From Fimicolochytrium jonesii (Eukaryota): 64,000 nucleotides of DNA. A model generated the notes under the pieces. It did no database searches. It saw only the letters and a program-made list of their open reading frames with translations, and was not told the origin of the DNA. A program made the position numbers and the translations under genes. Location: assembly GCF_025526975.1 (NCBI RefSeq), contig NW_026515669.1, positions 372,001 to 436,000 on the forward strand, in the 5' to 3' direction. Position 1 is the first letter of the stretch. The number at the start of each line of letters is the position of its first letter. Positions 696 to 33,998 of this stretch are shown one piece after another.

Positions 696-1112
696 TGTGG
701 AAGTGATCAGGTTGACGGCGTATGAGGAGATGGGGAGATTCAAGGGAAGATTAGTATTTGTGCGCGCGTGACCGGGCGTGATCAGTAGTAGGATAGAGAC
801 ACACCCCCTTCCCCCCCCACTATAAAAAGGACGACACTGACGTAGATTGCCCGGGAGCATCTTACCGGCAATGGACTAGACCATAAGTTTGTACCATAGG
901 AGCTCAATTGACCCAACTGACTAGCGTACCTACGCCTAGCAGTCCGGGGTTGCCAATATACAGAGTACGCCCAAGCGTGTCTACTTGTGTGGTGAGAATA
1001 GGGATTTGGTTGGTCTCTACCTTTTACCTTGCACTCTCCACAAGTAGATTACCTCCACCCGCGAACGACCTGATTTAGGACCTATCTCAGGGAATAATCG
1101 ACCACTTTCACA
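696..1112 (+). repeat. 5' LTR of element A (417 bp)
   Basis: TGTGGAAGTG...CACTTTCACA; roughly 95% identical by eye to 33580-33998; contains TATAAAA. Confidence 0.95.
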
Positions 1113-1115
1113 TTT

Positions 1116-1132
1116 TGGAGGCTCGGCCGGGA
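1116..1132 (+). promoter_or_regulatory. Primer-binding site of A, tRNA-Pro-like
   Basis: TGGAGGCTCGGCCGGGA starts 3 nt after the LTR and resembles the tRNA-Pro PBS TGGGGGCTCGTCCGGGA. Confidence 0.65.
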
Positions 1133-1892
1133 ACAAGGAGAGACCACCTTCAAGGAAAAACAAGGAAGGAATTACAAGGAATCTACGAGGTCATTTCAAA
1201 GATCGGATTGGCAAACCACATCTGCCACCTTACAAGAAACCTACCCACGCGTCGCATTCTCTGTTTCCCTACGGAGAAGCGAAGCACCAATCTCCACCAG
1301 AGATTGAAGATCAGTCCATAGATCTTCACCTAGATCAAGATAGCGAAACTGGCCGACGACGCAGAATTTGTCACCAGTCTCCGCTCCGCAAGCCGCTCTT
1401 CAAGCCGCTCGTCAACCAAGGAAGCAATTGTGGCAAGCAGCGCGACAGCCAAACGAGCTGCCTACGAGCGATACCGAAGTTCTCTGCTCCTCAAGAGAGA
1501 ACGCAAGCCCACAGGCAAAGCCAAGTCCACGGATTCCCCGTCCAAGGAATCCCAGTCCAAGGAATCCTCCGAAGAATCCTCGTCCGAGAATTCGTCGTCG
1601 AAACAAGGCCCATCATCTGGTGTGAACCCGTCCCGGACAACCACAAGATCAAGCAGCTTCCCGGGCAGCTTCCCAAGCACTCCACCAGCCCCAGTATCAA
1701 GGCCACCTGCTCAGGATTCCCCCGCGGATCCTCCAGCGCAACCCCCGTCTATCCATCCATCCATCCATCCAGCTACTGCTGCTGTTGCCCCGGCGATCTC
1801 ACAAGATCAAGCCCGAGCGCAGACTCCCGACCAGGAACGGGAGCAAGAAAGAGGACACCTGGTTTACGCCGGTTGCTAGAAGGAATCCCGAA

Positions 1893-3232
1893 ATGGCAGA
1901 CGGAACCCCCGCAGGAGTTCCCCGAGCGGCCTCAGCGGCCACGGTACTCGAAGCGGCGGCAAGAGGATTCGAGCGAGCCCACTGGATGTTGAAGAATGAC
2001 ATCTCGCCGAGATTCAAAGGCAAGCCGGGTGAGGACGCATATGCATTCCTGGAGAGGCTGAGGCAAGAAGCTCAAAGGGCCGTAGACCAAAAGTACTTCG
2101 AAAACCTCGACTACATGGTGCCCAAGCTTGGTCCACTCTTCAAGGATGGAGCGAAAAATGGTGGAGCAGTCTGTCGTTGACCAACATTCCATTTAAGCAA
2201 TTCAAGGAACAATTCATGGCTCAATACGACGAGAAGATACCCCCTATCTACCGTTCGGCGAAAGTAGCCAGTATGAAGAAGCTCAACAAGGAAACGTCGC
2301 GCGACTTCGCTATTCGGATCAAGGAAGCCAATTCCCGTCTCGGCACCAACCCCCTAGACCTAGGCAACCTCAAATACGCCTTCTATCAAGGTCACAAGCC
2401 TCGTGAGCAAGACAAGATCGAGGAAGTGAAGATAGGTGGCAAAGACTGGTACGACGGGGCGGTGACCTTCGACCAATTTGCCGAAGAAGCGTACCGAAGA
2501 ATTGACAAGGAACGGCTCCGAAGCCGGCGCCACGCCCGAAGCTCCTCCTCGTCCTCCTCGGACTCGGAGTTCAGCTCCAGTGGCTCCACCTCTGCTTCTT
2601 CCTCGGAAGAAGGACGCAGCCGTTGTCGCCGGAACAAGAAGGACAACAGGACATTCCGGCCCCAGCGACAAGGATCCCCGTCGCACATTCTGAAGACGGC
2701 GGTCCAAATTGCCCCGCCAAGTCCCATGCCTACCGCCAACATCGAGAAGCTAGCTAAACATGCGGCGGAGAACGAGATAACCAAGTTCAGAGAGGAACTC
2801 CGCTTGACCGGTAGCCGACGCGGCCACATGGGACGGGCAGTACACTTGACAGAATTCGACGACGACCGGGATGATTACTCCGGTTACGAGGCATACATGA
2901 TCGACCGACAACAAGGTCCATACCCCCACCAGCCGTACCTGCGCAACGACTACGGCCAGCAGAGCCAGAACGACCTCAGTACGCAAGTACAGGAAGTCGT
3001 CAAGAAAGCGGTTGCCGAAATTGCCGCGCAAATGGGCAAGGTGCAGATCAACAATGGCCTGTCCTCGGGAGGACCACCAAGGATCGGAGAGGGAAAGTGT
3101 TACGCCTGCGGGGGCGACCACTTCAAGGACGACGTGGACCGTGAGACGGAGAGATCAGTATGCCCCAAGAAGCAAAGCCCAGAGGCGGGAAATGCCAATG
3201 CTGAGAAGCGGCATTTTCCCCGCCAGGGCTAG
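1893..3232 (+). pseudogene. gag of element A (frameshift in the A-run near 2155), C-terminal Zn-knuckle-like motif
   Basis: PRFKGKPGEDAYAFLERL...GAK(K)WW capsid-like motif; CYACGGDH..C knuckle. Confidence 0.8.
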
Positions 3233-3524
3233 GAGCCGAGAGCCTCCTAGTCCTGGAACCAACGGCTCTTGAGCAGGAAGACCACGGAGAATCGCTGCCT
3301 CAAGGCCAGGATGAAAGTCTGACCTTTCCTGCTCGGTCACCATCAGAACCGAGAAGAGGCAGTGATTCTGACTCCGAAAGCGACTAGGGAACGCGCGGAG
3401 AAATAACGACAGCTGACGAACGTTACAACCCCAACACCTGTCCAAGTCGGGAGAAGAAAAACCCGACTCGGAGGACCCTGACCAAACACGCTACCAGTCC
3501 CCGCCACCCGAAAAAGAACTCTAC

Positions 3525-4124
3525 TTGATCAACTTGGTTGACAAGAACGATTGGCAATTGCACCTGGACATCTTCCAGCAACTCAATGACGGACCCTGGG
3601 GAGGCCCACATGGCCATACCATGGACCTCTTTGCCACGAAGCAGAACGCTCAAGTTTCAGAGTACTGCTCGGTCGACCAGACGGACAGCAATGCAATTGC
3701 CCATGACGCCTTCAAGATTCGCTGGGTCGCCGAGAATGGCTGGGCCAACCCCCCTTGGCTAGCCATTCAACAGGTGCTTGACAAGATCGTCACGGACGGA
3801 GCGGCCATTACACTGATTACCCCCGTATGGCGAGAAGCTCCATGGTACCTTCAGCTCCTGACGCTCCTCGTTGACTATCCTAAATTGCTGAACCACGAAC
3901 GAGACCTCTTTGCCAAGGGTGGCTTCCGTGAACAAGACGAAGGTGTTTACAGGCTACCGCCCTGGGAACACACCGCGGCATGGCGAATCTCCGGTGACTC
4001 TGCGGCCATTCACCACTTCCGAGACCGGTTGCGCCAAGTGTGGACCTTCAAGACCGGCCCCCGCCATGTCAAGCGCCTGCCATTCCAAGACTGCTACGCA
4101 GGAACTCTGTCCTTTCTACGGATT
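3525..4124 (+). CDS. DNA N6-adenine methyltransferase domain (DIRS/phage Dam-like) at the N-terminus of A pol
   Basis: DWQLH..FQQL..WG..MDLFAT.QN..DAF..W..NPPW..I.QVL.K..A..TLITPVW...PWY matches the DIRS-type MT consensus, with an NPPW catalytic motif IV. Confidence 0.88.
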
Positions 4125-4445
4125 TGTAATGTGGAGTGTAATGTGGAGAACGACACGTCGCGTCTGTTAGACAGGCCTTGGGGAAAAATACCTGTATGTG
4201 ATGGGAATATACAGGTATTTCCTGGCCTACGACGCGTCTCGACAGTGTTCTCCAGTTGGCTCCGACCTCATGGGTACTTTAACAGTGCTCGTCGCGAGTT
4301 CCTATGCACAACAAGTAGTTCTTTTACTACATACCGAATAGCAGCGCCGGCGAACACCCAGTCCGTGTACAGTACCTTACAGCAAAGTAGTTATTGTATA
4401 CGAACATCAGTTATACAACCCGTGTGGAAGGTAGTCCACATCACA
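4125..4445. mobile_element. Solo LTR (321 bp) inserted in A between the MTase and the protease
   Basis: TGTAATGTGGA...TCCACATCACA inverted termini; perfect GGATT TSD (4120-4124 / 4446-4450); excision restores the frame LSFLR-IPFRTILS. Confidence 0.9.
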
Positions 4446-6654
4446 GGATTCCCTTCCGGACAATTCTCTCCATCCGTCGGCGCCCACCAGCGACAGCAGA
4501 CAAAAAAGGGGAGGAAGATGCCAAGGCGGTGGCAATTGACACGGCCATATTGGAAGCACACGAGAAGGGGTCACTGGAAGAGATAATGCTTCTGGAGAAG
4601 ACGGTCAAGCAACGGAAACGCAAGGCATTGAAGAGAGAATTCCTCGACAGCCTTGTCTGGAAACAAGTCGGAGCGGACAAGTACATCCCAAGGCGCAATT
4701 CTTCCTGAAAGACTTGACGATAGTCACAGGAGAATTGCTGAGCAAGGCAAGACGGTACCTCGACGTCCGAGAAAAATACGAGATCACCGCGCATCCTGGG
4801 GACGACCTACCCACCCAGGACACCTGGATTGCTCCGGTGGCTGGAAATGAAGAAAGATTCCACGCTTGGAAGGAAGCCCGAGAGCTGTACCTCACGGATG
4901 ACCGCATGGTCATTCCTCCCGATGAAGGAAAAGAGGACACCCTCCTTGATTCCCTTCATGCCCACGTCGAAAAGGACACGACAAGTAGTCCGGACCTACG
5001 CAGGATGTACACCATTGCGCAGATCTACGGGAAGATTGAGGACACGTCTCTCGATGAGCTCGTTTTTGACACTGCAGCGAGTCTCAACGGCATCGACGCT
5101 ACGTTCTACATGATGCTGAAGACCAAGCACGGCTCAAAGATCAAGGCCACCAAGTACGAGCGCAAGCTGTCGGGAATTGGCGAAGGCCGTTCAATAGGCC
5201 ACGTTGAATTGAGAGTCAAGGACGTCAATGGACGGCACAGTTACAAGTTGAAGTTCAACATCATACCCAACTTGGGACGACCGGTGCTTATCGGCATCCC
5301 AGGGCTCGACGCAATGGGGGCAGTCATGGACATGGAGAAGAGATCATTCGCCTTCCGACTACCAACCGAAGAGCAAATGACCATGCTCATGAAGATAACG
5401 CTAGAAGACCATCCCCTTCACACCCACCTCCCGACGGTCGCTCCGCTAGGGCCATCACGCTATGACGTAGTCATCAAGCAAGACCAAGTAGTGTTGAAAC
5501 CAATGGCGGTGACGCACGTACGGGTCGGCGGAACGAAGCAGGGAATCCCCGGAACGACGTACCTTGTTGAAGGCAACAAGGCGTTAGGCGAGTCAGGCAT
5601 ATGGTGTGCGAACTAACTCGGGAAGGCCAACGAGAACGGAGAATGGCTGTACCCGGTCGCGAATCTCACGCCCAGGAAGCGCATCCTTCGGAAGAATCAT
5701 GTCGTCGGAACCGCCACCGCCAGCGACCACGACCTACGGGTAGAACCAGTGCCTGAAGCGTATCTGACGGAGGAGAAGCTGAGCGGATGGTTGACTGAAA
5801 ACCTGAAAAATGACCTACCGCCACCGCCGCCCGCATGGCCAAACGGCCAAAAGGCCGCCGGCCAACGCCATTGGATGATGCCCGGATTAAGAAGCACCAC
5901 CGGCTCAGCATTCTACACGCTTCAGAGCCAAGAGGAAGTGAAGGCCTGCGGAACGGACGAGCCGGAAGCGGGACCAGTGGAGGTGAAAGGGTTGGGGCAA
6001 GAGGAGATTGGCGAACTGGCGAAGACATCAGCCATTCACAAGATGAAAGATTTGGACGCGGCCGCCACCCCTCTGGAGGACGAGCAATCCTACGTGTCAC
6101 CAGCCACCCGCCGAGGACGAGACCAAATAGAAGCAATGGCGCCTCGGGCTCACCTGACACCGGAAGAAGACAAAGCATTACGGGACGTGCTCCTAGCGAA
6201 TGCGGAAGCCTTTGACCCCCAAATTCCGGACAAGCCAAATATTCCATACGAACATCACATGGAGATAATGCCGGGGACTCTTCCCGTTGCCCACCCTCCA
6301 CGCCGACAGGGCCAGGAGAAAGAGAAGGTCCTACGGGAGCACACTGGCACAATGCTGAAGGACAACATCATCCGACCCAGTAGATCACCATGGGCCGCTC
6401 CGGTGTCGCTAGTTAAAAAGCCGGGGGGTGGACTGAGATTCGTCACTGACTACCGTGAACTCAACGCAAAGACTATACCCGACTCCCATCCGCTGCGTCG
6501 AATCGACTCGACCATTGAATTCCTCGCCGGCAAAAAGTGGTTCACCACCATGGACCTACGCTGGGGATTCTGGCAGATACCGATCAAGGAAGAGCACAAG
6601 CACCTCACAGCCTTCTGTACACCACATGGGCTGTTCGAGTACAACAGACTCCCA
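4446..6654 (+). pseudogene. pol of A: linker, aspartic protease and N-terminal half of RT (frameshift near 4700, stop at 5614)
   Basis: LVFDTAASLNGI protease site with LIGIPGL; RT motifs SPWAAPV.LVKK..GLRFVTDYRELN, DLRWGFWQIP, TPHGLFEYNRLP, then truncated. Confidence 0.9.
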
Positions 6655-7632
6655 TCTCGTAACGGCTTCAGCGAGATAATGACCGATGACCATATTCTTG
6701 AGAAGACCGGCCTTGAAGTATCGAATCTGATCGATAAGGGGAATGGTGCCTTGATCGTTATCGAGACGATGAGCGGCTTCAAGCTCATTATTGGTGTCTT
6801 GGAACTCCTTGATATATTTCTCAAGAGAGTCACCGAGCTTGAGACCGGAGAGCTTGAGCTCAATATTATTACGCAAGTTCCGAGGATAAAAGTGAGCGAC
6901 AAGAGCCGTTTCAAAAGCTGACCAACTTGCGGGAGCGCCGGAGGCGTAAGTCGTATTGTACCACTCGAGAGCAGTACCCTTGAGGTAGGTAGTGAGCGTA
7001 GGGGCGTACTCTGCCATAGTAAAGGGTATGGCATTGGCAGCTCCAGTACCGTCTGTTCCAGCTGCTACAGCCGGGACAGTGAGAGACTCGAGAAAGTTGT
7101 GGTGAGACGAAACGAACTCTTCGATCTTTTTGGCAGCTTTGGCGCCATCGTATTCGACGAGCTTGTTCTTGCGAGCGTCAATAAGGAGTCTGAAACGTTC
7201 GGCTCGTTGGACGTCCTGCGTAACAGCACGCTCCCAAGTAGCAAAAGCGGCTGCGACAGCCGCAACGATAGCTTGAGTTTGTTGGTCCATTCTTGCTTGT
7301 GAACGAGTGTACGGGCGACGTCCGGTAGAAGAGGACATTGACGAGGAATGTCTTGGTGATGCTAGCGGTAGGTGGTGCTACCATGTAACGTTGGAGGAAA
7401 CGTAGACAATATTGGGCCCTTCTGAGAGGGCTGAGAGCAGTGTATTCTAGTGAAGAAAAAAGTAAGAAGCTCTTCGCAGCGGCCGCTCGACTGACAGCTT
7501 TATATATGGGCTGCCAGCGGGGCTTGCGTGGCTTCAGTGAGGCTTGGCGCCTTATGTAATGTATCACCGAGAGCTCGGGTGGCCAGCCCGGGTCTCGGAT
7601 CATAGAAGTAAAGAGATATAATATGAAATACA
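6655..7632 (-). mobile_element. Element C: truncated LTR retrotransposon (5' LTR 7384-7632, PBS, gag 5' part 6655-7338) in reverse orientation
   Basis: Minus strand TGTATTTC..CGTTACA followed by TGGTAGCACC; gag motif YLKGTALEWY...SWSAFETALVAHF. Confidence 0.82.
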
Positions 7633-9585
7633 ACTGAAGATGAGATAACCCCGACACTGGAAGGAGCGTTCACCGAGGAGATTAAACACGCGCAGAAGGG
7701 GGACAAATTCGTCGCCCGGTACCTCGCATTCTTTGAAACGGGAGAACTACCGGACAACATCCTGACAAAGCAACTCATGCTACGGACGATCTCCGACCTA
7801 CGCGTCCAGGACGGCATACTCTATCGAATTCAAGAGTTTCGCCGACCCGGGTACAGACGCTGGATGTTCAAGCAGATCGTTGTACCGGCCAAATTGTGAA
7901 GACGATGCCTGGAGCTCTGCCACGACGACCTGTTGGCAGGACATCTGGGCAGAGACAAAACCTTCAGCAGACTTCAACAGTCCTTCTGGTGGCCGGAATG
8001 CGTGGCGGACATGATCAATCACCTCGCCAGTTGCGTCAAATGCAATCAGCACAAGCCGGAAATGCCGAAGTCTGCGAGAGGAGGAGAGATGGACTCAATC
8101 GTCATTGGAGACGTGTGGTGGCGGGTTGGAATGGACTTGCTTGGACCCTTGCCGGCTACAAGGAATACAAAGTTCAAATACGTACTCGTTGTCATCGACT
8201 ACGCCAGCAAATTCAGCTTCGCAATTCCATTGAAGGACGCAAAGGCGTACACGGTTGCCCGGGCTCTTATGGAGCACGTATTCACCATCTGCGGGGTCCC
8301 CGGAGTGATAACGTCGGGCCGTGGACAGCCCTTCACGAGCGAGGTTCAGAAGGCGCTACTGAAGCTACTGGGGGCCGCCCCAGCATTAGCGTCGCCCTAC
8401 CTCCCACCATCCAATGGGCTTGCGGAGAACACGATCAAGACGCTCTCAAAGATGATCCAGACCTACGTGAACAAGTACACCCACGACGACTGGGACCGAC
8501 AACTTCCGTACATCTTGTTCGGTCATCGGACCATGATGCAATCACCGACATTGGAGCTGCCATTCTACCTGATGTTCGGACGCGACCCCCAGATGCCGGG
8601 ATTCTTGTGGGAGAAATCCCACACGCCAACGGAGTCATGGGAGCCGATTGGGAAAGGAGCAATGCCGGTCGGGGACTTGCGAGCGGAGATTGTCAGGCGC
8701 CTGCAGATTGCATGGGATTTAGCCAAGGAGAACGTCGTCAAAGCCCAAGCACAACAAAAGGCGTGGTACGACAAGAACTCCGAGAAGGCAAGCTACCAGC
8801 TAGGAGAACGAGTCTGGCTGGCAATTCCTCAGTTTCGCAAGTCGGCCAACGTGGAAAATGCGACGGCCATCAAGAAGTTCGCTGCCAAATGGAGTGGACC
8901 ACACCGGGTAGTAGGTGTCGGCGACAACGGCCTCACCTACAAGCTTATGGAACTCCTCTTGCCTGTGGAAGTCATCTACCGGACAGCCCGTATCCGGCGC
9001 ATGCGACCATTCACTGCCAGACGACCGCTAGACCCGACGGAGCTAATTGAGATGGACGAAGAGGAAATTTCGACAGCTCAATTGGCACAGGCAGCGACAG
9101 CTTGAGTCTTGAAGAAGACGCCATTCAGGCCTAGAGCGTACGGGACGTCCCACGAACTGAAGAAGCGAGGGCTTGACCCGGACACGGACTCGGAAGACTC
9201 TGATGGCAATGTTGAGCATGAATGGGAGGCCGAGAAGATCATTGACCACCGCCAGGACGACAATGGGCAGTGGGAATCCAAAGTCCACTGGAAAGTCTGG
9301 AACATTCGGTACGACAGCTGGGTGGCACTCTCGGACTTCCGAGGGCAGGAGCTACTGGATACGTACTGTCGCGCAAATGGCGTCACCATTGGGGACGAAT
9401 CACCTACGGCGGACGCCCAGACCGGCGACGACAGCACGCAATTACGCCGCCCCACGAGACAATCCACGCAGAAGTCTCCAAAAAGGGGAGGAGATAAGGT
9501 CGGGGATACTACAGAGGCCGCAGGGCGGAAACAGAACAAAGGAGGGAACAAAGGGTCAGCTGGTCGGCAAAGGAGTAGAGAATGA
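7633..9585 (+). pseudogene. pol 3' part of A: integrase (HHCC, DDE core, GPH motif) and chromodomain; in-frame stops near 7897 and at 9103
   Basis: HDDLLAGHLG..CVKC, VGMDLLGPLP, SNGLAEN, WSGPHRV; EWEAEKIIDHR..KVHWK..DSWV. Confidence 0.92.
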
Positions 9586-9831: not shown

Positions 9832-10076
9832 TGGTGGAGGTATCATCCTCCCAAGTCCCCGGTTAGGGTTCGCGTAGTTTATTTCCTCACGTGACTCCCC
9901 TCCTGCTTACGCCACGCTTCTGCATACGGGACTTCACTCTTTTCTTCCCCTTTGGACCTCGCGTCCTCTTTACACTTCAGACTTTTCTACACAAGACAAT
10001 ACATACTTCACAGTACAACACTGCACACTACATAGAGTTTGCTCAGTCATCTGCTTCCTCTGCCGACTACCGCTAA
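9832..10076 (+). repeat. 5' LTR of B
   Basis: Direct repeat of 30371-30615, about 14 differences counted by eye. Confidence 0.92.
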
Positions 10077-10168
10077 GTGGTTATGAGCCCTGGCTCCGCC
10101 CGCAGCTAGCGGACGTTCCAGGATAAAGAACTCACGATCTCCAGTCACCGCTCTCTTAGAAAAGCACC

Positions 10169-15030: not shown

Positions 15031-15153
15031 GACATACGGAACACCCATACCGAGACGGCTTCTGGACACTACATACAACTTCAGCACCTTAACCCGCCAC
15101 CGTGATAGTCGCCGCTGCCCTGGCACCGGGGGCTCCACCGGCTCCGGCTCCGC

Positions 15154-19492: not shown

Positions 19493-19497
19493 CTTTC

Positions 19498-20027
19498 TGT
19501 TATGAATGGGCGGAGCCGACGGAAATAGAGGCGACTTGTGGTGCAGGTTGTTGACAGGTAATGGTATTCAGACCGAAACAAGAACTAGAACAAGACTAGG
19601 AAGAACTGGTGTTGATCTGCTGGGGGATCAGGAAGTGGGGAGCTCAGGGGAGGCGGCTATTTATGCTTTTCTGGGAAGGCTGGGGAAGCGTGCGGAAGCA
19701 GAAGGGTACGGAATGAGAGGGAAGCCAAGAGAAGCGCCAAGGGTGGGGAAGCATAGAAACAGAAGACTGGGGATGGGGTGGCTACGCTGAGGCTGTGGGC
19801 GGGTACGTGGGGAAGTATGGAGAAGGGTTTGTAAGCGCCGAGTGTTGGGAGGTGTGGCTACGTGCGGCTGCGTGGAGAAATGAAGGCAGTGGCAGGTGTG
19901 GGGTAGCGCGGCTGCGTGCGGCTGCGAGGTTTGGCAGATGTCAGGTTTTGACAGGGAATTGACATTGACTGACTGTTGGGATGCTGTCATGAGGTAAGCG
20001 CATGGTATGGACGCGTCGTCCATAACA
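19498..20027 (-). repeat. 3' LTR of E
   Basis: TGTTATG...CATAACA; direct repeat of 24846-25375. Confidence 0.96.
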
Positions 20028-20039
20028 TCACCCCCTCCT

Positions 20040-23000: not shown

Positions 23001-23709
23001 CAAAATCTTGGTATTCTTCAGGAATGATGGCCTTCGGATCTTTTGGAGGAGTGGTCGCCAGGGCTTGGGAATCTGACTTGGTCGGATTGGCGTAGGCAAT
23101 GAATGCCTGGTCATGCCTTGCCGCCACACGGAAAGCTGGGGCGCTGATAAACGATACGTGGATCGGTGTGGGTGCTGGGTCCAGTGTGTTGGGTGTCTGG
23201 GCTAGGGAGACTGAAATCTTGTCTTGATGGATACGGATCAGAGGTTCAGGGGTTCTTGAGGGCTTCGGGCTAGGTTCTGTTGGCAGGGCATCCCAGGAGG
23301 CGTATTGTCCAAAACCGCAATGGCAGCGGACGCAAAGAGTGCGAGTCTTCCAGTGGAGCTCCACATCATGGAGCTCAAACCAGGGAAGCCCCAGGATGAT
23401 TGGCGCATGCGGGGAACATGTCACATGGAATACCACCTCCTCAAAATGGTCGTTGACCCACATGCCCAAAGGTTGGGTGTGATGGGTAATGGAGCCCGCA
23501 TGGCTGGGACGTCCGTCAACCAGTTCAAGCGCAATGGGGTCCTCCTTCTTGACAAGTGGGATGCGGTGCTTGCGGGCATAACTTTCGTCGATGAAGCACG
23601 ACATCGCACCGGTGTCAAGTAGTGCTGAAAGCTGAACTGGAGCTCGCTGGGCCGATATCTGCAGGGTAACAGGGTACTCGAATGGTGAGGATGGGCCCAA
23701 AATCCGCAT
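20040..23709 (-). pseudogene. pol of E (PR, RT, RNase H, INT, chromodomain); one frameshift near 22260 and one stop at 21312
   Basis: [61 protein letters not shown]. Confidence 0.95.
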
Positions 23710-23867
23710 GGGTGAGGGTATCTCAGATCGGAGATTGACATTGTTGGTGGTCAGGAGAAGGGTGTTGCTGGAGATGCCAGGATCGGAGCAAGGTTTTGTG
23801 GCTTCTCCCTTGGCAGTACTTGCATGGTGAGAAGGCCCAGGACAGGTGTTGCCCAGCTGCTCGGCCT

Positions 23868-24815
23868 TTACTGCAGCTGGACTTGGGCAAAATCCTGGAT
23901 GGGTGCAGGTTCCTTAACCGCGACATTCGCCGTGCGTATCTTGTTTGGGCAGAGTTTGGCTATGTGGCCAGGTTTACCACAATAGAGGCAAAGTTTGTTT
24001 GTGATGCGGTGTTGGCGCTCTAGCGGTGTGAGGGGTCCTCGCGGACGAGCAGCGTCAATGACCATAGGGTCGTCTGGGCGGTTGTCGGGGCTCATGAGGG
24101 TGGGGCTAGTGGTAACTGGCACATATGGCTGTCGGTTCCTGCTTCGCTCTAGACGGCGCTCAAACAATCGGTTGTCACATTGGATGGCCTGTTCCATCAC
24201 GGTGTCGATTGAGGCGGTAGGGGGCATCGTGAGCATTAAGTCCTTGACGTCTTCTTTGAGGCCGCGACGGAAGGTGGCAATCAATGCCTGGTCATTCCAC
24301 GACACATCGCATTGCAGCTGTCGGAATTCAGCTACATACTCTGTTGCTGCACGGGTTTGTCGAAGGTTCTGGAGCTTGTTTTCGGACGTGCGGATCCTGT
24401 CGCTGTCTCCAAAGACTGCTTGCATTTGCTGGATGAAATCATCCAGGTTCGTAAGGGAATGATGGTCTTGTTCGACAAGGGGCGCCAGCCAGGCCTGGGC
24501 GGTGCCAGTGAGGTAGGTGCCAATAGTTCGTATCTTGGTCTGATCGTTGGGGTAGCGCCTGGGTTGGAGGGCGAACATGAGCCGGATCTGGTTGAGGAAC
24601 CCACGGAACTTGCTTCGGGTGCCATCAAATTTGTCTGGGAGACTGATTTTGGGTTCGGGGGCGTGAGTGGCAGGGGCAGTGGTCTGGGTTTGCGCTAGTT
24701 CGGCTTGTAGGGTGGTATTCTGCGCTCGAAGTTCGTCAATCGCATTGCACATGGCTTGCCAGGCTTCGGCCGTGAGGGGAAGGGCGTCGGACATGGTGAT
24801 TTGACGTGGAGGCAC
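23868..24815 (-). CDS. gag of E
   Basis: [31 protein letters not shown] knuckle. Confidence 0.93.
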
Positions 24816-24845
24816 AGCGGCTGGGGGTTGTTGAGCAGATCAAAC

Positions 24846-25375
24846 TGTTATGAATGGGCGGAGCCGACGGAAATAGAGGCGACTTGTGGTGCAGGTTGTT
24901 GACAGGTAATGGTATTCAGACCGAAACAAGAACTAGAACAAGACTAGGAAGAACTGGTGTTGATCTGCTGGGGGATCAGGAAGTGGGGAGCTCAGGGGAG
25001 GCGGCTATTTATGCTTTTCTGGGAAGGCTGGGGAAGCGTGGGGAAGCAGAAGGGTACGGAATGAGAGGGAAGCCAAGAGAAGCGCCAAGGGTGGGGAAGC
25101 ATAGAAACAGAAGACTGGGGATGGGGTGGCTACGCTGAGGCTGTGGGCGGGTACGTGGGGAAGTATGGAGAAGGGTTTGTAAGCGCCGAGTGTTGGGAGG
25201 TGTGGCTACGTGCGGCTGCGTGGAGAAATGAAGGCAGTGGCAGGTGTGGGGTAGCGCGGCTGCGTGCGGCTGCGAGGTTTGGCAGATGTCAGGTTTTGAC
25301 AGGGAATTGACATTGACTGACTGTTGGGGTGCTGTCATGAGGTAAGCGCATGGTATGGACGCGTCGTCCATAACA
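24846..25375 (-). repeat. 5' LTR of E
   Basis: Direct repeat of 19498-20027; minus-strand ATAAATAG at 25005-25012. Confidence 0.96.
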
Positions 25376-26913
25376 CTTTCCGCGAGTGACCAAAAGGAAC
25401 GGTAACCTGGGATGTCCGCCAGGGATAAAGGTAAGGTTTGCCGGGAACACTTGAATTCTTGGAAGCAGACCACATCTAACTTCAATTCCGTAAATAAAGT
25501 GGAGAGCGCGACGCCTTTGCGGACGAGGTTCCGAAGAGAGTTAACGTTCCAAGTGAGCACGCGCAAGTCTTGTATCGTTGGGGCAACCGGAGGTGGAGAC
25601 GGTTGGGACGCGGGCATCAGTAAATCCTGCTCGAGCTGTGATGCGGCCGGCCGAAGAAGTAGGGGAGTGAACGACGAAGGGGGCGCGTCGTCAACAGCAA
25701 GCGCGTGAAGGAGGTTGATGCGATCATCCAATGCGTCCGTCGACGAGGGAGGCGGGTCAAGAGGTGGTGCAAATTCGGTACACAACACGCCGAAGAGAGC
25801 GCCGTTTTGAATATCCGCCAGCGTCTGCGCACCGTCCGTATCGATCTCGACCCGGAAATTGTTGGCGGTGAGAGCAGCAACATGCGCATCAGCGGTAGCG
25901 GCTTGCGTTTGGGAACGGGTGCGCGGGGCAGGGAGCGCGGTCGGGGTGAGCGGGTGCCGACCATGCGCTTCCCATTCAGTGTTCTCAGCGGGGGTGAGCG
26001 CGCGAATCTCTTGCGTATCCCCAGTGCTGCCTTGAACGACTAACCACGTGGAATGGATGCGTAGGTGATAAATGGCTTGCGACCAACGAGTGATAGCGTC
26101 GACATATTCCAAAAATGGGCGGCCCAACAAACAGTCGGCGTCCATTCCATGGATCACTAAAACGTTGATGGGGATCTGGTGACCCGCGACCGTGATGACT
26201 AATCCACGCACGGCGCCTTCGATGGATGGCAAGCTACCGTCGACTTGTCGTAAGCGGAAAGAAGGCGTCAAAGACGAAAGGGTCCATTGATTGCGCTGGC
26301 GCAATGCCGCGCTGATCGCGATGAGACAACAGCCGCCGTCGAACAAGCACTTGGTGGGTGCACCTTGGATTTCCGCGTTCATGAAATGGGTGCCCGTAGC
26401 GGAGACATCAATCATGGCCAATTGCTTAAGATGGAAGTTCAAGCGTGAATCGAGGGTGTTGTCATCCGGCGAGGTCCCGTCTTCGGCGATGTCAGTGTCG
26501 GGATGCCACGCGCCAAGTAAAGGTTCGCGAAAACACAGTGCCGCGCGGCGAGTCTTGTTTACCAACTTCATGGATTCTCGTAACTTCTCGCGAAGAGCCG
26601 GGCTCCATTGTAAGAGGTCAGCCATCGTGAGTCCTCGCACTTCGGTTTCGTTCAAGAAATTGACGATGTCGAATGGGATCTTATCGATCATGGCGCGGAT
26701 GGTTGCCGGAATACGTTCCTCCTGGCTCTCCGGTTGCAGCAACTTGGGAGGGTCCTTAGCCCGGCTAGCCGCATGTGTTGGCGGCTTCATCCCAGAATCC
26801 ACGGGAGGTGCGGGCGCCGGTTGGATTACGGGTTTGACTGCCGGGGGTCGCGGAGAGGGGCTCGCTTTGGGAGGTGGTCGAGGGGGTTTCGGGGGACCAA
26901 CCTCCATGGGCAT
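25376..26913 (-). CDS. D pol 5' part: aspartic protease and N-terminus of the AP endonuclease
   Basis: CLFDGGCCLIAIS..LLGRPFL protease; LRVLTWNVNSLR..DVVCFQEFK EEP-nuclease N-terminus. Confidence 0.9.
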
Positions 26914-26918
26914 CGGAG

Positions 26919-28978
26919 CTAAACGGACAACCGGCAGTGGTCGCGGTGGCTTGGTAGCGGTATGCGACGCTCGGGCGGAAGCTGAACGTATGGCTGTACC
27001 CGCCGATCGGGATACTGCAAAGCGGTGGTAAAACGTGTGGGACGTGGAGGCCGCGGGGGTACAGGTGCAGGTCGCAAGGAAATGTTCAACCTCTTCGATG
27101 GTGGCATATCAGAAGCCTCATCGTAGTGCTTGCGCTTTTCGGCCATGTAAGCATCGTACGCCTCATATTCTTCAACGTTGTAGGGCACTCCTGGATCTGG
27201 AGGATAGGGTGACGGGAGCTCGGTGCCCTCTAAGCCGAGCTCCCTGGGAGAAAATCCGACGGGGAGTCTTCGGGGTCAGCGTAGTACGCGCCGACGTCTT
27301 TGAGCACCCAGGAATAATACTCCTCTTGGGTATCGTCGTAGTCGGAGATATCCTCGGGGTAAAAGCAAGCGGCCAACCGATACCCACGCCAAGTGTCAAG
27401 CTTGGTCATCGACTTGCAGTCTCGGAACCCGTGCCCAGTTTGGCCGCAGCGGAAGCAAGATCTTTCAGGACGCCTCTGGGGGCGGGCGGACGGCAGACCG
27501 GGAGGATATTGATTGCTATTGGATGCCTGTTTGACGGCCAAGTTCTGCATACGGGAGGTAAGATCGCTGACTGGATCTGCTGGCGTAGTCGTCTGAATTG
27601 TAGTTTGAATTGTAGGCGCTGGTGGGGCTTGTTGACGAGGGGCCGGTGCCGGAGTCGGATACGTACGGTCACAACTGGGGTATGCGCGCGGAGCTTGACG
27701 GACAGCCGGAGGGCACCAGAAGTCCGTTCGATTGGTGGCGATCGGGGCCGAATATGCGTCTTTGCGCTCAGCGTAATCCGCACAGGCACTTACGAGATCC
27801 TCAATGGGGAGCTGGGTGAAGTTTGGCAAGCTGAGGGCGTGTGTGAGAGTAGCGCTATCACCCAAGCCGCGGATAAAGGCTCGAGCAATCTGGGTGCGGG
27901 TGAGTTCAGTGGCGACTGTAGCAATGTGCTTGTTCAGGTACTCCAGTTCGTAGACCAACGACAAGAACAAGCTCCCGTACTGACGAATGGTCTGCCCTTC
28001 CGTGCGCTGGAAAGTCGAAATGCGATCTGCGAAAAGCGACGGGTCACGATCGATCGAACAAGCGACGGGTCACGATTCTAGAACCATGTCGGTGCGAACG
28101 TGGTTCCAATCTTGTGTGTTGCCTTGGTACGACGCAAACCAGGTCCATGTGAGATGGTCTTTGTCATCACTCGCTTTTGACAACCAACGAAAGCGGTCTT
28201 TTTCGGGAACGCCGCAGGAATCCGCCAGCTTGTCGAACGTGCGGAGCCATTGCAAGATTCGCGAGGTGTCCTGGTGGTGCTTGTTGCCCTCGTATTTAGG
28301 CAGGCCTTTCTGGAGGGACGTGTTGGAATTGGCCGTCTGCGGATTGCGCTGAAGCTGCTCGAGGGTTCGGAACATCAAAGTGACCAGATCTTGTTGACTG
28401 ATCGCGCCATCCACCGGGGCAGCGGGCATTGCGCCAGCACGATGCAAAATCGGCGGCATTGGACGAAGACCGGCGCTGTTCGGTGGCGCGGAATGCGGTC
28501 GAGCGGTGCTGGCGTGCGGACCGGCATGGTACCTATCGCGCGCCATGCGCCAAGCAGCGGCGATCTTGGCAACGTCAGAGAACTCGCGGAGAGTGAACTG
28601 TGCAGGATTCGCGTCCAATGCGAACTTCAATGACTGGATGTAGATGCGGTCAAGAGAGCCAGCGGCAAGACCTTCACACACGGAGTCGAAACTGATGCCC
28701 ATATTCGTACAAAACTTGAGTAGACCATACAAGATCTCGGTGTCGACATGGGAAACGGTACCATACAAGCTGATCTTGACCGTGGCGTGTTCAATAGTGG
28801 AACGAGCGATGAACGTGTCGATACGATTACGAGCGGTCTCCGTGGCACAAGCACACGCAGACTGGGTATCGCTACTATCATGCTCGCTAGACTCTCGTTC
28901 CTCCTGCTTGTCGCTGTGCAACGGACGAGTGTCGCGCCAATCATTGCCAAGGAAGGCCGGGCTACCGTGGAAAGCCAT
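26919..28978 (-). pseudogene. gag region of D (in-frame stop at 28070, frameshifts downstream)
   Basis: LPKYEG..ILQWLRTFDKLA capsid-like motif; CFRCGQTGHGFRDC knuckle. Confidence 0.8.
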
Positions 28979-29322
28979 TGCGCAGGAAGTGGACGGGATA
29001 AACGGCGGGATATGCGGCGAGTTGTCTGATCGATGGATACCCCACTGGAGCGGATAGCCGAGACGATGATGCTTAAGGAACCGTTGTGGGATGGTCGGAT
29101 TGATGTCGGGAATAGATGGATGGATGGATGCCGGGGGTTGCCGCCGACAGCTATAAAATTCACTAGAACAACGCGGAAGGACATGGGAATGTCGGCAAAA
29201 TGCTCAAAACGCAAAGTCAAGCCCGGACGATGAAGACGATGGGGATACTCTCTGTTGCTGCAGGTGCTGCGGTGTACGATGTGCGTTTTCCCAAACACCT
29301 ACTTCTTCATTCTCCACAAGAA

Positions 29323-29522
29323 TGTGGTAGGCAGGGAAAAAGATGTTATATATTGGGTTGTCGGTCAACTGGCGCGAGCGCAGCGAGCCGGCTTTTAAAG
29401 TACAAGAAGAAAAACTGCCAGAAAGTCACATGACTGGGGAATAAACTAGCTACTGGTTAGGGTTACGACTGGGGATAGGGTTGGGGATTAGGGTTGCGGC
29501 GTCAACTCCACACCGTACCACA
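29323..29522 (-). repeat. 5' LTR of D
   Basis: Direct repeat of 15154-15353. Confidence 0.95.
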
Positions 29523-29526
29523 CCGC

Positions 29527-30232
29527 CTCCACCAGGCGGACCCCCTGGACCCCCTCCCCCGCCGTTTCCGTCACCGTTTCCATCCTCACTCGCATCCATG
29601 TGCTTTCTCAAGTACTGGAGTCGCTTCATCATCTTGTCTTGCTCCCGTCTCTCGACCGCATCACTGCGGCGCTTCGCCTCTTTCATCTTTTCTTTCGATA
29701 TGCCGCCTTTTGCCTTATATCGCGACTCCGAGACTGCCTTTCACCCAAGGTAGTCTGCCTCCTCCATCAATGCCTCGAACAACCCCTTCTTTCGCTTCGA
29801 TCGATCCAGTTTTGCCTTTGTAAACGCCAGGTGCTTCGCGAGGATCTCATGGTTATCCTTGCGGTACCTCAACGTCGATACCTCCGTCGCCAATCGAAGA
29901 GCTTCTCTAACTTGGGCTTTCGACATCAAAGAGTTGCTTGCGGACGCTGCGGACGAAGCGCGCGTAGAGCGCGTAGTCAGTCGTGAGGGTCCTGGCGGAG
30001 GTGCAGCTGGAGGGGCTGCGGGCGCTCCTGTCTTACGGGCCGTTTGCTTCTTCTTGCCGTCGCCGCTCTTCTTACCACTCCTGCCGTTCTTGCCTCCGTT
30101 TGCCATTGTTTTGCGTATCGTGTGGTAGTCTGGGATACGGTAGTTGAGTATGGGGAACGTTGGTCTTACCTCTCTGGGGCGACTGACAGCTGTCTCTTGT
30201 TTTATACTCGCGGCGGTTCCCTCTTCTTTCAT
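29527..30232 (-). pseudogene. Antisense accessory ORF of Copia B; basic, coiled-coil, H3-tail-like motif; last codons at 15089-15153
   Basis: ORFs 29741-30232 and 29450-29686 share a frame (one TGA). Removing D continues it in frame GGPPGGG|GAGAGGAPGARAAATITVAG*. Confidence 0.65.
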
Positions 30233-30370
30233 TTTTACTCTTTCATTTCTTTCATTTTAGTCATAGCTATTCACCCAACGTCCGCCCGCTTTTTCGCGTA
30301 CGGCCGCACCATTTCACTCATTGCTTAGATTTATCTTTCACTTAGATAGACTCGTGAGTTTGAGGTGGGG

Positions 30371-30615
30371 TGTTGGAGGTATCATCCTCCCGAGTCCCCG
30401 GTTAGGGTTCCCGTAGTTTTTTTCCTCACGTGACTCCCCTCCCGCTTACGCCACGCTTCCGCGTACGGGACTTCACTCTTTTCTTCCCCTTCGGACCTCG
30501 CGTCCTCTTTACACTTTAGACTTTTCTACACAAGACAATACATACTTCACAGTACAGCATTGCACACTACATAGGGTTCGCTCAGTCATCTGCTTCCTCT
30601 GCCGACTACTGCTAC
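30371..30615 (+). repeat. 3' LTR of B
   Basis: Direct repeat of 9832-10076, preceded by GAGGTGGGG PPT. Confidence 0.92.
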
Positions 30616-30670
30616 GCTACCCCTTCCCCCCTACCGACCCCGAACCGGTACTCCCAGAACTCCGACCATC

Positions 30671-33378
30671 ATGTCCCGAAGATCCTCCACCACCTCCTCA
30701 AGAAGATCCAGCGTCGCAGACCTGTCCAACGCGGTCTCGAAGCCACCTATCCTGCCACCAATGACCAGGACCAAGAACCAGCGCACGGACTCGCCGGTTC
30801 CCAGTACCCCGGTCCGCTCCGTGTACCCCCACAAACCAATCGAGGTCGACCCTCCCCCTCAGATCGACAGAGGGTTCAGAGAAGCCACCAGCTCCCGTAC
30901 TCCCGCCCCAATGAAGGCAACGGGGAACAAACGTCCGCCAATCCGCTCGCCCAGAATCACCGTGCGAAATGCCGGCGACACCCCTGTTGACACCCGCAAG
31001 AAAAGGAAGGTGTTGGATACGCCCGAAGAGCCACGAAGAGGCAAAGCGATCATCGGCTCCGCCACTCTCAGTGTCTCCGGCCTGGACCCGGAAGAGGATG
31101 AGTTCACGAGCGAGACCCTGACGAGAGACGTGGGATACCAGCCCGGAGAGGAAGAGGAATACTACGGAGCAGAGAAGAATGGAGCTGTCTGCATGTGCGA
31201 AAACCCGGACGATAGCGCTTCCATCTATGGTCGCGTCGTCCATGCGAACGCGGAGACCTCTGCTGTGGAAGCCAATTCTACCACCCAGAATGCCTCAACA
31301 ACCAGAGACTGCCCCACCCTCAGGAAGACGAAGAAGTCTTGCAGGCCTACTTTGCCCAGTACAACTTTGTTTGCCCGCCCTGCCTAGAGGACCTCCCGGA
31401 GAATGCAGAAACCGACGGCAAGATCGCTGCGACCAAGCACCCGAACGTCGGAAAGAAGAGGGGACTGCGTCTGGCGCCCTACGACCATGAGAACGGCAAG
31501 TGGAGGACCGACTTCGCGATGAAGACCGGGGAGGGGGATACGGAGGAAGACCGACCGTACTGGGTCTCAGGGAGGGACATCGAAAAAGTCATGCTCCCAA
31601 GCCAATACAAGGAGTATACGGACGTCCCATCCACCATGTACACCCGTGTGCACGGCCTCTTCCCCCAACCGGTGCTGACCTCGCGCTCGAAAGCTCACAA
31701 CTACATGCGAGACTGGGAAAAGGAATTGATCTTGAAGCAAGCCGTCTTCGTCGTCATTACCAACCTGGAGCCGCACTACGCGCAATGTGCCAAGGCCCTC
31801 CGCAAAGAGCACGGCATCCACGAGACTCCGGACGACCTAGAGGACCCCAAAGCACTGCTCCGCCAAGCCGCCTTCCCCCGCATCGACCAGCCCAACTACC
31901 TTATCTACGCAGGCCCCAACCTTTGGGAACTCGAGATCATCGTAGCGAGGTTTGGGCCCAAACCCAAAGACAAGCCGGAGGACAAGGAGCTGACGCTCGG
32001 CGTGCCAAGAGTAGAGTCTGAATTGTGGTCAAGTCTGGCGTTGAAATGGCTTGCCACCGGCGACCTTGGTTCGCTCAAGCCGAAGGGATGGAGGACACCG
32101 GAGGGCGAAGCAAAACACGGGGGATCACCGAGGTTCAGAACTCAACGGGGGCACCCAGCAGTGGACGCACAGGCGGTCATCCACGGAGGGGTACGGACAA
32201 CGACAACCTCCGGGGGAAAGACGAACAAGGGCAAATTCCCTTACCCCACAGCAGAAAGTCGACACGTGAGATACGGCCTTGGGTGGGCGGAATACCTAGA
32301 ATTTGCGGAGAATGCCACGGCACACAAGCGCATGGCCATTTGCCACGAATGGATCGACCCCGCTAGCCATGCCCGACGGAGGAAGGTTATCGACAACCTC
32401 CCTGCCCAATGTCAACACAACATTCCTGCGGGCTCCCCAGGCACTATGTGTGTCATCAACTTCAATGTGACCGTCTACTGCCACGTGAACCCCAACGCCC
32501 ATGGGTTCACCGTTCAATACATCCACGGAAGCTTCTCTGCCGGAGACCTCGCCTTCTGCAATTTGCATCTCCGTGCCGACACACCCTCGGGCACGATCAC
32601 TTTGGTCCGCACCCAGCTAGCAGAACACACAGTGCTGGATTGGGGACCACTGCCCGGGCGGAGCTGGACCAACACCTGGCGTTTCAGTCAGCCCGCCACG
32701 ACGCCACAGGATGTCCTGCACGCCCATAGCCGGAAGGAACTTCGGGAATCCTGGGCGAAGTACCGGGGCGGCTCATGGCCTACCCAGGGGCTCAACATTG
32801 CCCAGCGTCCCAAGGCCGACGTAAACTTCGATTCTCAAAGTCAGCTTGAGACCCTCAAGACGAGCCTGCAGGAGTTGCCAGACATCTACATCGGCCACAC
32901 TTCCATCGCCAGCGGCGACGGAATGGGCAACCCAGACCAATTTAACGAGGATAGGCGGAACATGCTGTCCCGTTACACGGCAGGCGTCGACGACTTCGCC
33001 CCGATCGCCCGCCTCCAGCAGCAAGAGACTGCCTGCAGAGCCCACGCCACCCTCGCCGCCAGCGAGCACGCCACCCTCGACGACATCCTGGATGCAATTG
33101 TCGCTCGGTACCCTACTACCCCTCCGACCTCACCCCCGCAACCACCTCGCCCTACGCTCTGAGCTAACATCACGCCCTCAACGAGACTGCTCCTCAAGTA
33201 CCAACACGTCGTCCCTCTCCCTGAGTCCGACGCCGACGAAATACTCCGCAGATGGTGGCTCGAAGTACGCACCCTCAGCGCAGAAGCTTGTCTAGAGCCG
33301 ACCCAGACCACGACTCCGGGGACGACAAGACCATCTGGTGCCGGACCATCCCGCGCTGGTCCATCCAGCGCGCGCTGA
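30671..33378 (+). pseudogene. Accessory ORF of A: disordered N-terminus, PHD finger, TET/JBP-like 2OG-Fe(II) dioxygenase (1-nt frameshift near 31241, TGA at 33160)
   Basis: CMC..(P)CERGDLCC..FYHPEC..FVCPPC is a C4HC3 pattern; INFNVTVYCHVN..GSFSAGDL.F..L...PSGTI.L.RTQLAEHTV...GRS fits the fungal TET/JBP-type DSBH core. Confidence 0.75.
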
Positions 33379-33565
33379 TCGATCAAACCTACGACACCCC
33401 ACGACCTCAAACAACAAACACCACTTCACCAACACATCCGCCCAAGTAGCGGAGGTTCCCGGAGGCTAGCACACCATGGCAACATGGTGCAACAGGCTAG
33501 TTTCTGCAAAATACAGGGAGTACCACGGCGGAACCCTTCTGAGCACCCCTCCTAGAGGAAAGCTC

Positions 33566-33579
33566 AAAAAAGGGGAGGA
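33566..33579 (+). promoter_or_regulatory. Polypurine tract of A
   Basis: AAAAAAGGGGAGGA directly before the 3' LTR. Confidence 0.85.
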
Positions 33580-33998
33580 TGTGAAAGTGATCAGGTTGAC
33601 AGCGTATGAGGAGATGGGGAGACTCAAGGGAGGATTAGTATTTGCGCGCGCGTAACCAGGCGTGATCAGGAGTAGGATAGAGACACACCCCCTCCCCCGC
33701 CCCACTATAAAAAGGACGACACTGGCGTAGATTGCCCGGAGAGCATCTTACCGGCTATAGACTAGACCATAAGTTTGTACCATAGGAGCTCAACTGACCA
33801 AACTGACTAGCGTACCTACGCCTAGCAGTCCGGGGTTGCCAATATATGGAGTACGCCCAAGCGTGTCTACTTGTGTGGTGAGAATAGGGATTTAGTTGGT
33901 CTCTACCTTTTACCTTGCACTCTCCACGAGTAGATTACCTCCACCCGCGAATGACCCGATTTAGGACCTATCTCAGGGAATAATCGACCACTTTCACA
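33580..33998 (+). repeat. 3' LTR of A (419 bp)
   Basis: Direct repeat of 696-1112, followed by the GAGG TSD. Confidence 0.95.

What the first reader, a model, noticed from the sequence alone, without database searches (positions are those of the whole stretch)
696..33998. One Gypsy retrotransposon carrying a DNA-modification toolkit: 6mA methyltransferase, PHD-TET/JBP dioxygenase and chromodomain
Seen: removing the nested inserts at their TSDs leaves one element, LTR-PBS-gag-[N6A-MTase]-PR-RT..INT-chromodomain-[internal TATA, PHD + 2OG-Fe dioxygenase]-PPT-LTR, inside one LTR pair with a GAGG TSD. Established: NPPW MTases are typical of DIRS tyrosine-recombinase elements, and fungal TET/JBP genes are typically linked to DNA transposons such as KDZ. 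In many early-diverging fungi 6mA marks active genes while 5mC marks repeats. Inference: the element could add 6mA to look active and oxidise or erase silencing 5mC, guided by histone readers. I do not know of this combination described in an LTR element.
Basis: partly seen in the sequence, partly recalled or inferred. Interest (0 to 1): 0.95.

Follow-up and report, generated by a model that had tools for sequence, protein, structure and literature searches.

The report
Retrotransposon carrying adenine methylase and TET
A dead copy of a retrovirus-like jumping gene in a chytrid fungus carries both an adenine-methylase domain and a TET-type gene that likely help it escape silencing; a TET passenger was reported absent from fungal retrotransposons, and this one has an unusual change at an iron-binding residue.

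Summary
Largely confirmed. One Ty3/Gypsy element (LTRs 95% identical, GAGG target duplication) holds gag, a DIRS-type adenine methyltransferase (MT) domain in frame with protease-RT, integrase-chromodomain, and a separate PHD-TET/JBP gene before the polypurine tract. Database names point to the chytrid Fimicolochytrium jonesii. An independent protein repeats the MT-protease-RT fusion; the TET fold is confirmed.

Corrections:
- This copy is dead, and the 6655-7632 insert replaces about 300 residues of RT/RNase H with no duplication.
- MT-plus-chromodomain LTR elements were described in a May 2026 preprint, though not in fungi and not with TET.
- This TET clade has HxN in place of the iron-binding HxD/E, so catalysis is uncertain.

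The new part is TET in an LTR element; Kojima 2025 found no TET retrotransposon. Codon usage, four further gene copies and one homologue's ending support family-level cargo, but I could not see a second locus with both cargoes. On other DNA the scan had already noted MT-bearing Gypsy elements, a TET-bearing LINE and Gypsy elements with other oxygenases (unchecked).

The parts
692..695 (+). left target-site duplication GAGG
696..1112 (+). 5' LTR
   Evidence: 397 of 419 columns identical to the 3' LTR
1113..1132 (+). primer-binding site (resembles a tRNA-Pro site; that assignment is recalled, not tested)
1330..3232 (+). gag, broken by frameshifts and stops; start approximate
   Evidence: PF03732, E 3.5e-5; Cys/His knuckle-like motif at 3098
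3417..4124 (+). DIRS-type N6-adenine methyltransferase domain at the N-terminus of Pol (DWQL 3549, DLFA 3624, NPPW 3747, WRISG 3981), no stop
   Evidence: (PF05869, E 0.003, below cutoff)
4125..4450 (.). nested solo LTR (4125-4445) plus GGATT duplication
4451..6654 (+). pol continued: linker, aspartic protease (DTA motif at about 5068), RT N-terminal half; frameshift at about 4690-4706, stop at 5614
4503..4515 (+). internal exact copy of the 13-nt PPT core
6655..7632 (-). 5' LTR (about 249 nt), PBS and gag start of another LTR element; no duplication; stands in place of the RT C-half and RNase H
7633..9105 (+). integrase (HHCC finger 7921-8043; second catalytic Asp appears changed to Gly at about 8317; stops at 7897 and 9103)
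9220..9360 (+). chromodomain
   Evidence: PF00385, E 1.4e-5
9480..9492 (+). second internal exact copy of the PPT core
9832..30620 (+). nested Copia element holding two further nested Gypsy elements (not part of the element described)
30671..33378 (+). PHD-TET/JBP gene: ATG 30671; PHD 31190-31383 split by a frameshift at about 31243-31246; HxN motif 32482-32490; distal His 32626; Arg 32680; early stop 33160; the paralogue's stop matches 33376-33378
33566..33579 (+). 3' polypurine tract
33580..33998 (+). 3' LTR
33999..34002 (+). right target-site duplication GAGG

Best explanation
This is a dead copy of a Ty3/Gypsy LTR retrotransposon that holds a DIRS-type adenine-methyltransferase domain at the front of Pol, an integrase chromodomain, and a separate PHD-TET/JBP gene inside its LTRs, and the set likely serves the element as an anti-silencing kit. 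Shown: the anatomy, the folds, the MT-protease-RT fusion in an independent protein, and a conserved HxN TET clade. Inferred: (1) as part of Pol, the MT domain would be packaged and cut free by the protease, and would put N6-methyladenine on the element's own new cDNA (or RNA) so that host 6mA maintenance treats a new insertion as active chromatin; (2) the chromodomain would steer integration by reading histone methyl-lysine; (3) the PHD-TET protein, made from its own internal promoter, would dock on chromatin at family copies and engage 5mC. I think it more likely than not (about 55%) still binds iron and 2-oxoglutarate through His-Asn-His and oxidises 5mC, perhaps slowly. (4) The two internal PPT copies would prime extra plus strands on a genome of about 12 kb.
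For: Single element: LTR pair, GAGG duplication, PBS and PPT. The same 13-mer PPT core occurs exactly 3 times in 64 kb, all on the + strand in three different segments of this element, against 0.14 expected with one mismatch allowed. No inverted or direct repeat of 10 nt or more brackets the TET gene. TET codon usage fits the element's own gag-pol best, by 20 to 107 bits over four other models. MT: P0007 (52% identical) carries MT, linker, protease and RT start in one frame, colinear with the window; the window, P0007, P0032 and P0033 form one clade (SH-aLRT 100, 42 rows, quick tree) and keep DLFA and NPPW. TET: Atlas feature hits are Tet_JBP clusters, 27 of 30, score 0.96; the model of homologue P0005 matches CcTet (E 2e-10), then CMD1, TET2 and NgTET1. 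Both His are invariant in 17 of 17 rows and the Arg is in at least 90%. Position +5 after the first His is Asp in 8 of the 9 clade members, where CcTet has the Gly linked to 6mA use. Four further F. jonesii gene models at 74-86% on contigs of other lengths. Homologue P0014 ends in KKGRM, the translation of this element's PPT-LTR junction (expected 0.004; noticed first, tested after). Host 6mA above 1%.
Against: No second locus with both cargoes was seen: no genome is held, and six collection scans returned no locus. The MT homologues and the TET homologues come from separate records. The carboxylate ligand is Asn in 8 of the 9 clade members and Lys in 1, while the other 13 of 22 rows have D or E; HxD/E is described as the iron-binding triad. 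The MT domain scores below the Pfam cutoff and its low-confidence model gives no fold match with E up to 0.001 (best E 0.02-0.04, M1.HpyAVI and the RNA cap enzyme PCIF1). Related domains were inactive in E. coli and were called likely inactive. One search found no F. jonesii MT gene model among 38 hits. No expression or methylation data. CpG is only mildly depleted across the element (0.83-0.96), which says little either way.
Confidence: 0.5

Rival explanations
1. The anatomy is as described, but the TET-like protein is a non-catalytic reader or decoy: it binds 5mC-DNA and chromatin and blocks silencing factors without oxidising anything.
For: Asp-to-Asn change is fixed on one branch (SH-aLRT 86; sister P0011 keeps HxD) and removes the carboxylate of the triad. 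Kojima cites 32 of 46 Coprinopsis genes as likely active, so inactive fungal copies exist. The PHD fusion suits a reader.
Against: Both His and the Arg stay conserved across members only 44-67% identical in the core; loss of catalysis usually frees these positions (inference).
Confidence: 0.25
2. The TET gene is a one-off passenger: a separate mobile cassette or captured gene that landed in the 3' region of this copy, and its paralogues move by other means.
For: No second locus seen. Fungal TET/JBP genes pass between DNA transposons (PMC12730594). A PPT copy right after the chromodomain could mark an older 3' end. An unchecked scan note reports a TET-like gene in a Fanzor element of this genome.
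Against: Codon usage matches the element's own genes; no terminal repeats around the gene; no LTR remnant follows the internal PPTs; P0014 appears to run into a PPT-LTR junction; the look-up by sequence did not link this TET to the Fanzor note.
Confidence: 0.15
3. The MT domain does not mark DNA: it is an RNA (cap-adjacent) methyltransferase or an inactive RNA-binding module used in packaging or translation, and the two cargoes act independently.
For: PMC4738411 places DIRS MT domains with PCIF1 and calls them likely inactive; PCIF1 chains fill ranks 2-5 of the weak fold search; no activity in E. coli.
Against: DLFA and NPPW are intact in 4 of 4 clade members; DAM-LTRs carry more 6mA than other LTRs in three species; the host has high 6mA.
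Confidence: 0.3
4. The TET protein removes or further oxidises the 6mA written by the MT domain (CcTet-like), giving a write-and-erase pair or a new adenine derivative.
For: The best fold match is CcTet, which acts on 6mA; both genes are in one element.
Against: Position +5 is Asp, not the Gly tied to 6mA use in CcTet; identity to CcTet is only 11-14%; PHD-TET relatives with HxD exist with no known MT partner.
Confidence: 0.07

Closest known systems
DAM-LTR and EpiLTR retrotransposons (Fernandez-Moreno et al., bioRxiv 10.64898/2026.05.21.726589; whole main text read, figures and supplements not seen)
   Same: Ty3/Gypsy element with a DIRS-derived DAM-like domain keeping NPP, often with a chromodomain; host with 6mA; same proposed 6mA mimicry.
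   Different: Five lineages named (two algal, ichthyosporean, Pyropia, Euglena); 'fung' and 'chytrid' occur 0 times. EpiLTRs add a cytosine methyltransferase, a writer, whereas this element adds a PHD-TET/JBP gene. The MT here lies before the protease; the text gives the position for only one lineage (between RT and integrase).
TET/JBP-encoding fungal DNA transposons (Kojima 2025, PMC12730594; abstract, introduction, section 4.2 and passages read)
   Same: TET/JBP gene carried inside a complete transposon; proposed escape from 5mC silencing.
   Different: All are DNA transposons or Helitrons of Dikarya; the paper states no retrotransposon was found with TET/JBP; motifs HxD or HxE, here HxN; 'PHD' and 'chytrid' occur 0 times.
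MT domain of DIRS1-like tyrosine-recombinase retrotransposons
   Same: 36-42% identity to P0008 and P0009, same DLF and NPP motifs.
   Different: There it follows RT-RNase H; here it precedes the protease in an integrase-encoding LTR element, and none of the 4 clade members shows the RNase H tail before it.
CcTet of Coprinopsis cinerea (PDB 8jkk, 7w5p)
   Same: Best fold match, E 2e-10.
   Different: 11-14% identity; HxD and Gly at +5, against HxN and Asp here; this family adds a PHD finger.

Membership tests
Ty3/Gypsy LTR retrotransposon | LTR pair with TG..CA ends, target duplication, PBS and PPT | tested here: met
Ty3/Gypsy LTR retrotransposon | order gag, protease, RT, RNase H, integrase | tested here: inconclusive
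   order of the parts present is right; RT C-half and RNase H are deleted in this copy
Chromovirus clade | chromodomain after integrase | tested here: met
   PF00385 E 1.4e-5, above cutoff
Chromovirus clade | RT groups with chromoviruses | not tested
   no reference RT set was fetched; by recall the RT start looks unlike the canonical chromovirus nested in this window
DAM-LTR (2026 preprint) | DIRS-derived DAM-like domain with NPP inside an integrase-type LTR element | tested here: met
DAM-LTR (2026 preprint) | belongs to one of the five named lineages | not testable with these tools
   their sequences are in closed supplements; no fungus is named in the text
DAM-LTR (2026 preprint) | 6mA enrichment on copies; host AMT1 | not testable with these tools
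   no reads or genome held; host 6mA above 1% from PMC11258239
EpiLTR (2026 preprint) | cytosine methyltransferase together with DAM and chromodomain | tested here: not met
   no DNA_methylase hit among the 13 frames scanned; the third module is TET/JBP
TET/JBP dioxygenase | TET/JBP fold | tested here: met
   (on homologue P0005, 47% identical to the window protein); 3 of 22 distant hits match PF12851 below cutoff; the window protein itself has no PF12851 hit
TET/JBP dioxygenase | HxD/E...H iron triad | tested here: not met
   HxN in the window and 7 more of 9 clade rows, HxK in 1; both His kept
TET/JBP dioxygenase | 2-oxoglutarate-binding Arg on the last strand (role recalled) | tested here: met
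   R630 in at least 90% of 17 rows; window 32680
TET/JBP dioxygenase | oxidation of 5mC or T in DNA | not testable with these tools
   needs an assay
PHD finger | C4HC3 zinc-ligand pattern and profile match | tested here: inconclusive
   family profile matches MLL1 PHD3 at E 0.001; Atlas PHD hits 0.87, a lead only; Pfam below cutoff; split by a frameshift in this copy
TET-carrying DNA transposon (KDZ and others) | transposase gene and terminal inverted repeats around the TET gene | tested here: not met
   no bracketing repeat of 10 nt or more; no transposase hit in the adjacent frames scanned

The most novel reading that the evidence does not exclude
A whole lineage of LTR retrotransposons carries both a working 6mA writer inside Pol and a working, PHD-guided TET enzyme with a His-Asn-His iron site. 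It would be the first LTR family with a TET gene, the first to pair a writer of the active mark with an eraser of the silent mark, and a natural TET variant with a new metal site.
Probability: 0.25. Interest if true: 0.88.

Novelty: new variant of a known kind. Interest (0 to 1): 0.72.

Why it matters
Kojima 2025 noted that no retrotransposon encodes TET/JBP and offered a reason why; this element is a counter-example in a host group that paper does not mention. It extends DAM-LTRs to chytrid fungi and gives a mirror image of EpiLTRs (6mA writer with a 5mC eraser or reader). It makes two open questions testable in a fungus with measured high 6mA: what the DIRS-type MT domain does, and whether transposon TET genes protect their own carriers. 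The fixed HxN motif is of interest for 2OG-Fe enzymology whether it proves active or not.

Tried and rejected
Looking for a second copy with both cargoes:
- No genome is held.
- Metagenome scans with P0005 and with the TET alignment found no locus; viral scans with MT and TET alignments found none; the prokaryote scan found none.
- No sequencing run was listed.
- The cluster look-up could not be made.
- Scan look-ups by sequence and by relatives were blank.

Domain searches:
- Sequence searches of solved structures with the window TET protein and the MT alignment gave no relevant match.
- The fold search with the MT model gave no match at E up to 0.001.

Other tests:
- Empty-site test: removing the element restored no long reading frame across the junction, so it neither supports nor weakens the duplication.
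- The tree and identity table cut two rows at the wrong motif and were discarded; one search replaces them. The motif table is valid.
- The careful MT tree did not finish; the quick tree is reported.
- Paper searches used a phrase that misses 'TET/JBP' as printed and are uninformative.

Rejected readings:
- Internal PPT copies as remnants of extra LTRs (no LTR similarity behind them).
- The 6655-7632 insert as a clean nested insertion.
Full report
Observation. The outer element is real. Its LTRs (696-1112, 33580-33998) have TG..CA ends and 397 of 419 identical columns, with 17 transitions and 3 transversions. GAGG flanks both ends, a PBS follows the 5' LTR and a polypurine tract (PPT) precedes the 3' LTR. 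Inside lie a solo LTR (4125-4445, GGATT duplication), a 978-nt fragment (6655-7632) and a Copia element (from 9832) that holds two Gypsy elements. LTR divergences are 20 of 417 for the outer element, 14 of 244 for the Copia, and 3 of 200 and 1 of 299 for the inner Gypsies; the first two are alike within sampling error.

One correction to the splice. The 6655-7632 fragment is the 5' LTR, PBS and gag start of another element on the minus strand. It has no duplication. RT stops at FEYNRLP and the frame resumes before the integrase finger; by comparison with the nested chromovirus about 300 residues are gone. The copy also has frameshifts and stops in gag and pol, an apparent Asp-to-Gly change in the integrase, a frameshift in the PHD, an Ala where its paralogues have Asp, and an early stop in the TET gene. 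It is dead. The spliced remainder is 11,210 nt, about 12 kb with the lost part.

Host. 5 of the 6 hits are named Fimicolochytrium jonesii gene models. P0001 (99%) is probably this locus; its model skips the broken PHD. The other four are 74-86% identical and lie on contigs of other lengths. PMC11258239 (passages) lists F. jonesii among chytrids with more than 1% 6mA. PMC12695648 (passages) reports 5mC confined to transposons and 6mA on expressed genes in Spizellomyces.

Methyltransferase domain. Frame 3417-4124 has no stop and keeps DLFA and NPPW. Pfam Dam gives E 0.003, below cutoff. It is 38-42% identical to the MT domains of two DIRS-type RT-RNase H-MT proteins. P0007, an 817-residue protein from an unnamed ENA record, has MT, linker, protease and RT start in one frame and aligns to 3537-4124 and 4690-6372. 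So the fusion is not an accident of this locus. The window, P0007, P0032 and P0033 form a clade with SH-aLRT 100 among 42 rows, none dropped (quick tree). The structure model was poor (pLDDT 61, 4 sequences) and gave no match at E up to 0.001; the best were M1.HpyAVI and PCIF1. No F. jonesii MT model appeared, possibly because annotation filters pol genes (inference).

TET/JBP gene. The window protein has no Tet_JBP hit in Pfam. The Atlas places the domain of homologue P0005 with Tet_JBP clusters (27 of 30 hits, score 0.96). The profile search found 23 proteins, 3 of the 22 scanned matching PF12851 below cutoff. The P0005 model matches CcTet at E 2e-10, then CMD1, TET2 and NgTET1. The N-terminal finger matches MLL1 PHD3 at E 0.001 by family profile and is also present in more distant members P0011, P0018, P0021 and P0023.

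The iron motif. I scored 22 rows: the window and 21 homologues. P0001 (same locus) and six proteins lacking the motif region (P0006, P0012, P0015, P0017, P0019, P0020) were left out. The motif is HxN in 8, HxK in 1, HxD in 11 and HxE in 2. The nine HxN/K rows form one branch (SH-aLRT 86) next to HxD-bearing P0011, and the six divergent members compared are 44-67% identical in the core. Both His are invariant and the Arg nearly so. Kojima describes HxD/E plus His as the iron triad, and Gly331, five residues after His326, as part of CcTet's 6mA recognition; this clade has Asp there. So a single fixed change removes the carboxylate ligand while the rest of the site stays. A search for HxN in this context (listing only) showed one paper with the word, which I did not read.

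Does the TET gene belong to the element? For: it lies between the chromodomain and the PPT. No repeat of 10 nt or more brackets it. Its codon usage fits the element's own gag-pol better than host genes (by 25 bits) or the three nested elements (by 20, 79 and 107 bits). Homologue P0014 ends in KKGRM, the translation of this PPT-LTR junction, the only such hit among 21 proteins against 0.004 expected; I noticed this before testing it, and it rests on a predicted frame. Against: I never saw a second locus, since no genome was held and six scans were empty. I put family-level linkage at about 0.75.

Internal polypurine tracts. The 13-nt PPT core occurs exactly three times in the window (4503, 9480, 33567), all in this element, against 0.14 expected. 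P0007 has KKGE and P0032 has KRGE at the place of the first copy. No LTR remnant follows the internal copies. They likely prime extra plus strands; this is inferred. Central PPTs appear in the listing, which I did not read further.

Mechanism. See Best explanation. The anatomy and folds are shown; every catalytic and chromatin step is inferred.

Comparison with print. The preprint 10.64898/2026.05.21.726589 (whole main text; no figures, reference list or supplements) describes DAM-LTRs in five non-fungal lineages, EpiLTRs with DAM, DNMT and chromodomain, more 6mA on DAM-LTR copies, and no activity in E. coli. Its introduction cites TET among enzymes acquired by 'several retroelements' (reference 20, which I could not see), and its closed supplements may list fungal elements; both bear on the novelty claim. 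[quoted passage not shown] PMC4738411 (passages) links DIRS MT domains to PCIF1 and calls them likely inactive. Searches found no paper on a TET-bearing LTR element; the library lacks most subscription papers.

Earlier scan notes (unchecked) report MT-bearing Gypsy elements including one in a chytrid with the MT before the protease, a TET-bearing LINE and Gypsy elements with PhyH-like or JmjC oxygenases, and a Fanzor-TET element in this genome. None listed combines MT and TET.

Verdict. Real, a new variant of a known kind. The MT-chromodomain part is published for other lineages. The PHD-TET cargo in an LTR element and its HxN site are the new points. Interest 0.72.

Noticed in passing
window 15154-29522, minus strand (pol 25009-27108 and 15502-19584): A young nested Gypsy element (3 of 200 LTR differences) carries an exonuclease III/AP-endonuclease domain between protease and RT (TIGR00633, 109.8 bits, above cutoff 99), split by the youngest insert. 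A DNA-repair nuclease inside an LTR pol is unusual.
   Followed up: partly
window 4503-4515, 9480-9492, 33567-33579: Three exact copies of the PPT core in one element; the first appears conserved in homologues P0007 and P0032.
   Followed up: partly
window 19498-25144, minus strand: Near-intact canonical chromovirus (1 of 299 LTR differences), the most recent insertion of the nest.
   Followed up: no
window 9832-15153 and 29523-30620: The Copia element has a short chromodomain-like stretch (about 13290-13400, seen by eye) between integrase and RT; not tested.
   Followed up: no
window about 5420-5740: Between protease and RT lies a beta-rich stretch shared with P0007 that by recall resembles degenerate dUTPase-like domains of some Gypsy elements; no family hit.
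   Followed up: no
P0005, P0010, P0016, P0019: Distant TET homologues have a conserved C-terminal extension of about 200 residues that the F. jonesii copies and P0014 lack.
   Followed up: no
P0038: A Gypsy-type RNase H tail directly followed by an NPPW methyltransferase: another DAM-LTR arrangement.
   Followed up: no
window 44295-44521: 42-nt inverted repeat pair 143 nt apart, MITE-like.
   Followed up: no
window 35430-36500: A further integrase-chromodomain fragment downstream of the element, seen by eye; no Pfam hit in the one frame scanned.
   Followed up: no
window 37819-56272: Ordinary host genes by inspection: a tricalbin-like C2 protein, a Qcr2-like subunit, a Cdc14-like phosphatase and an exosome subunit; names recalled, not searched.
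   Followed up: no
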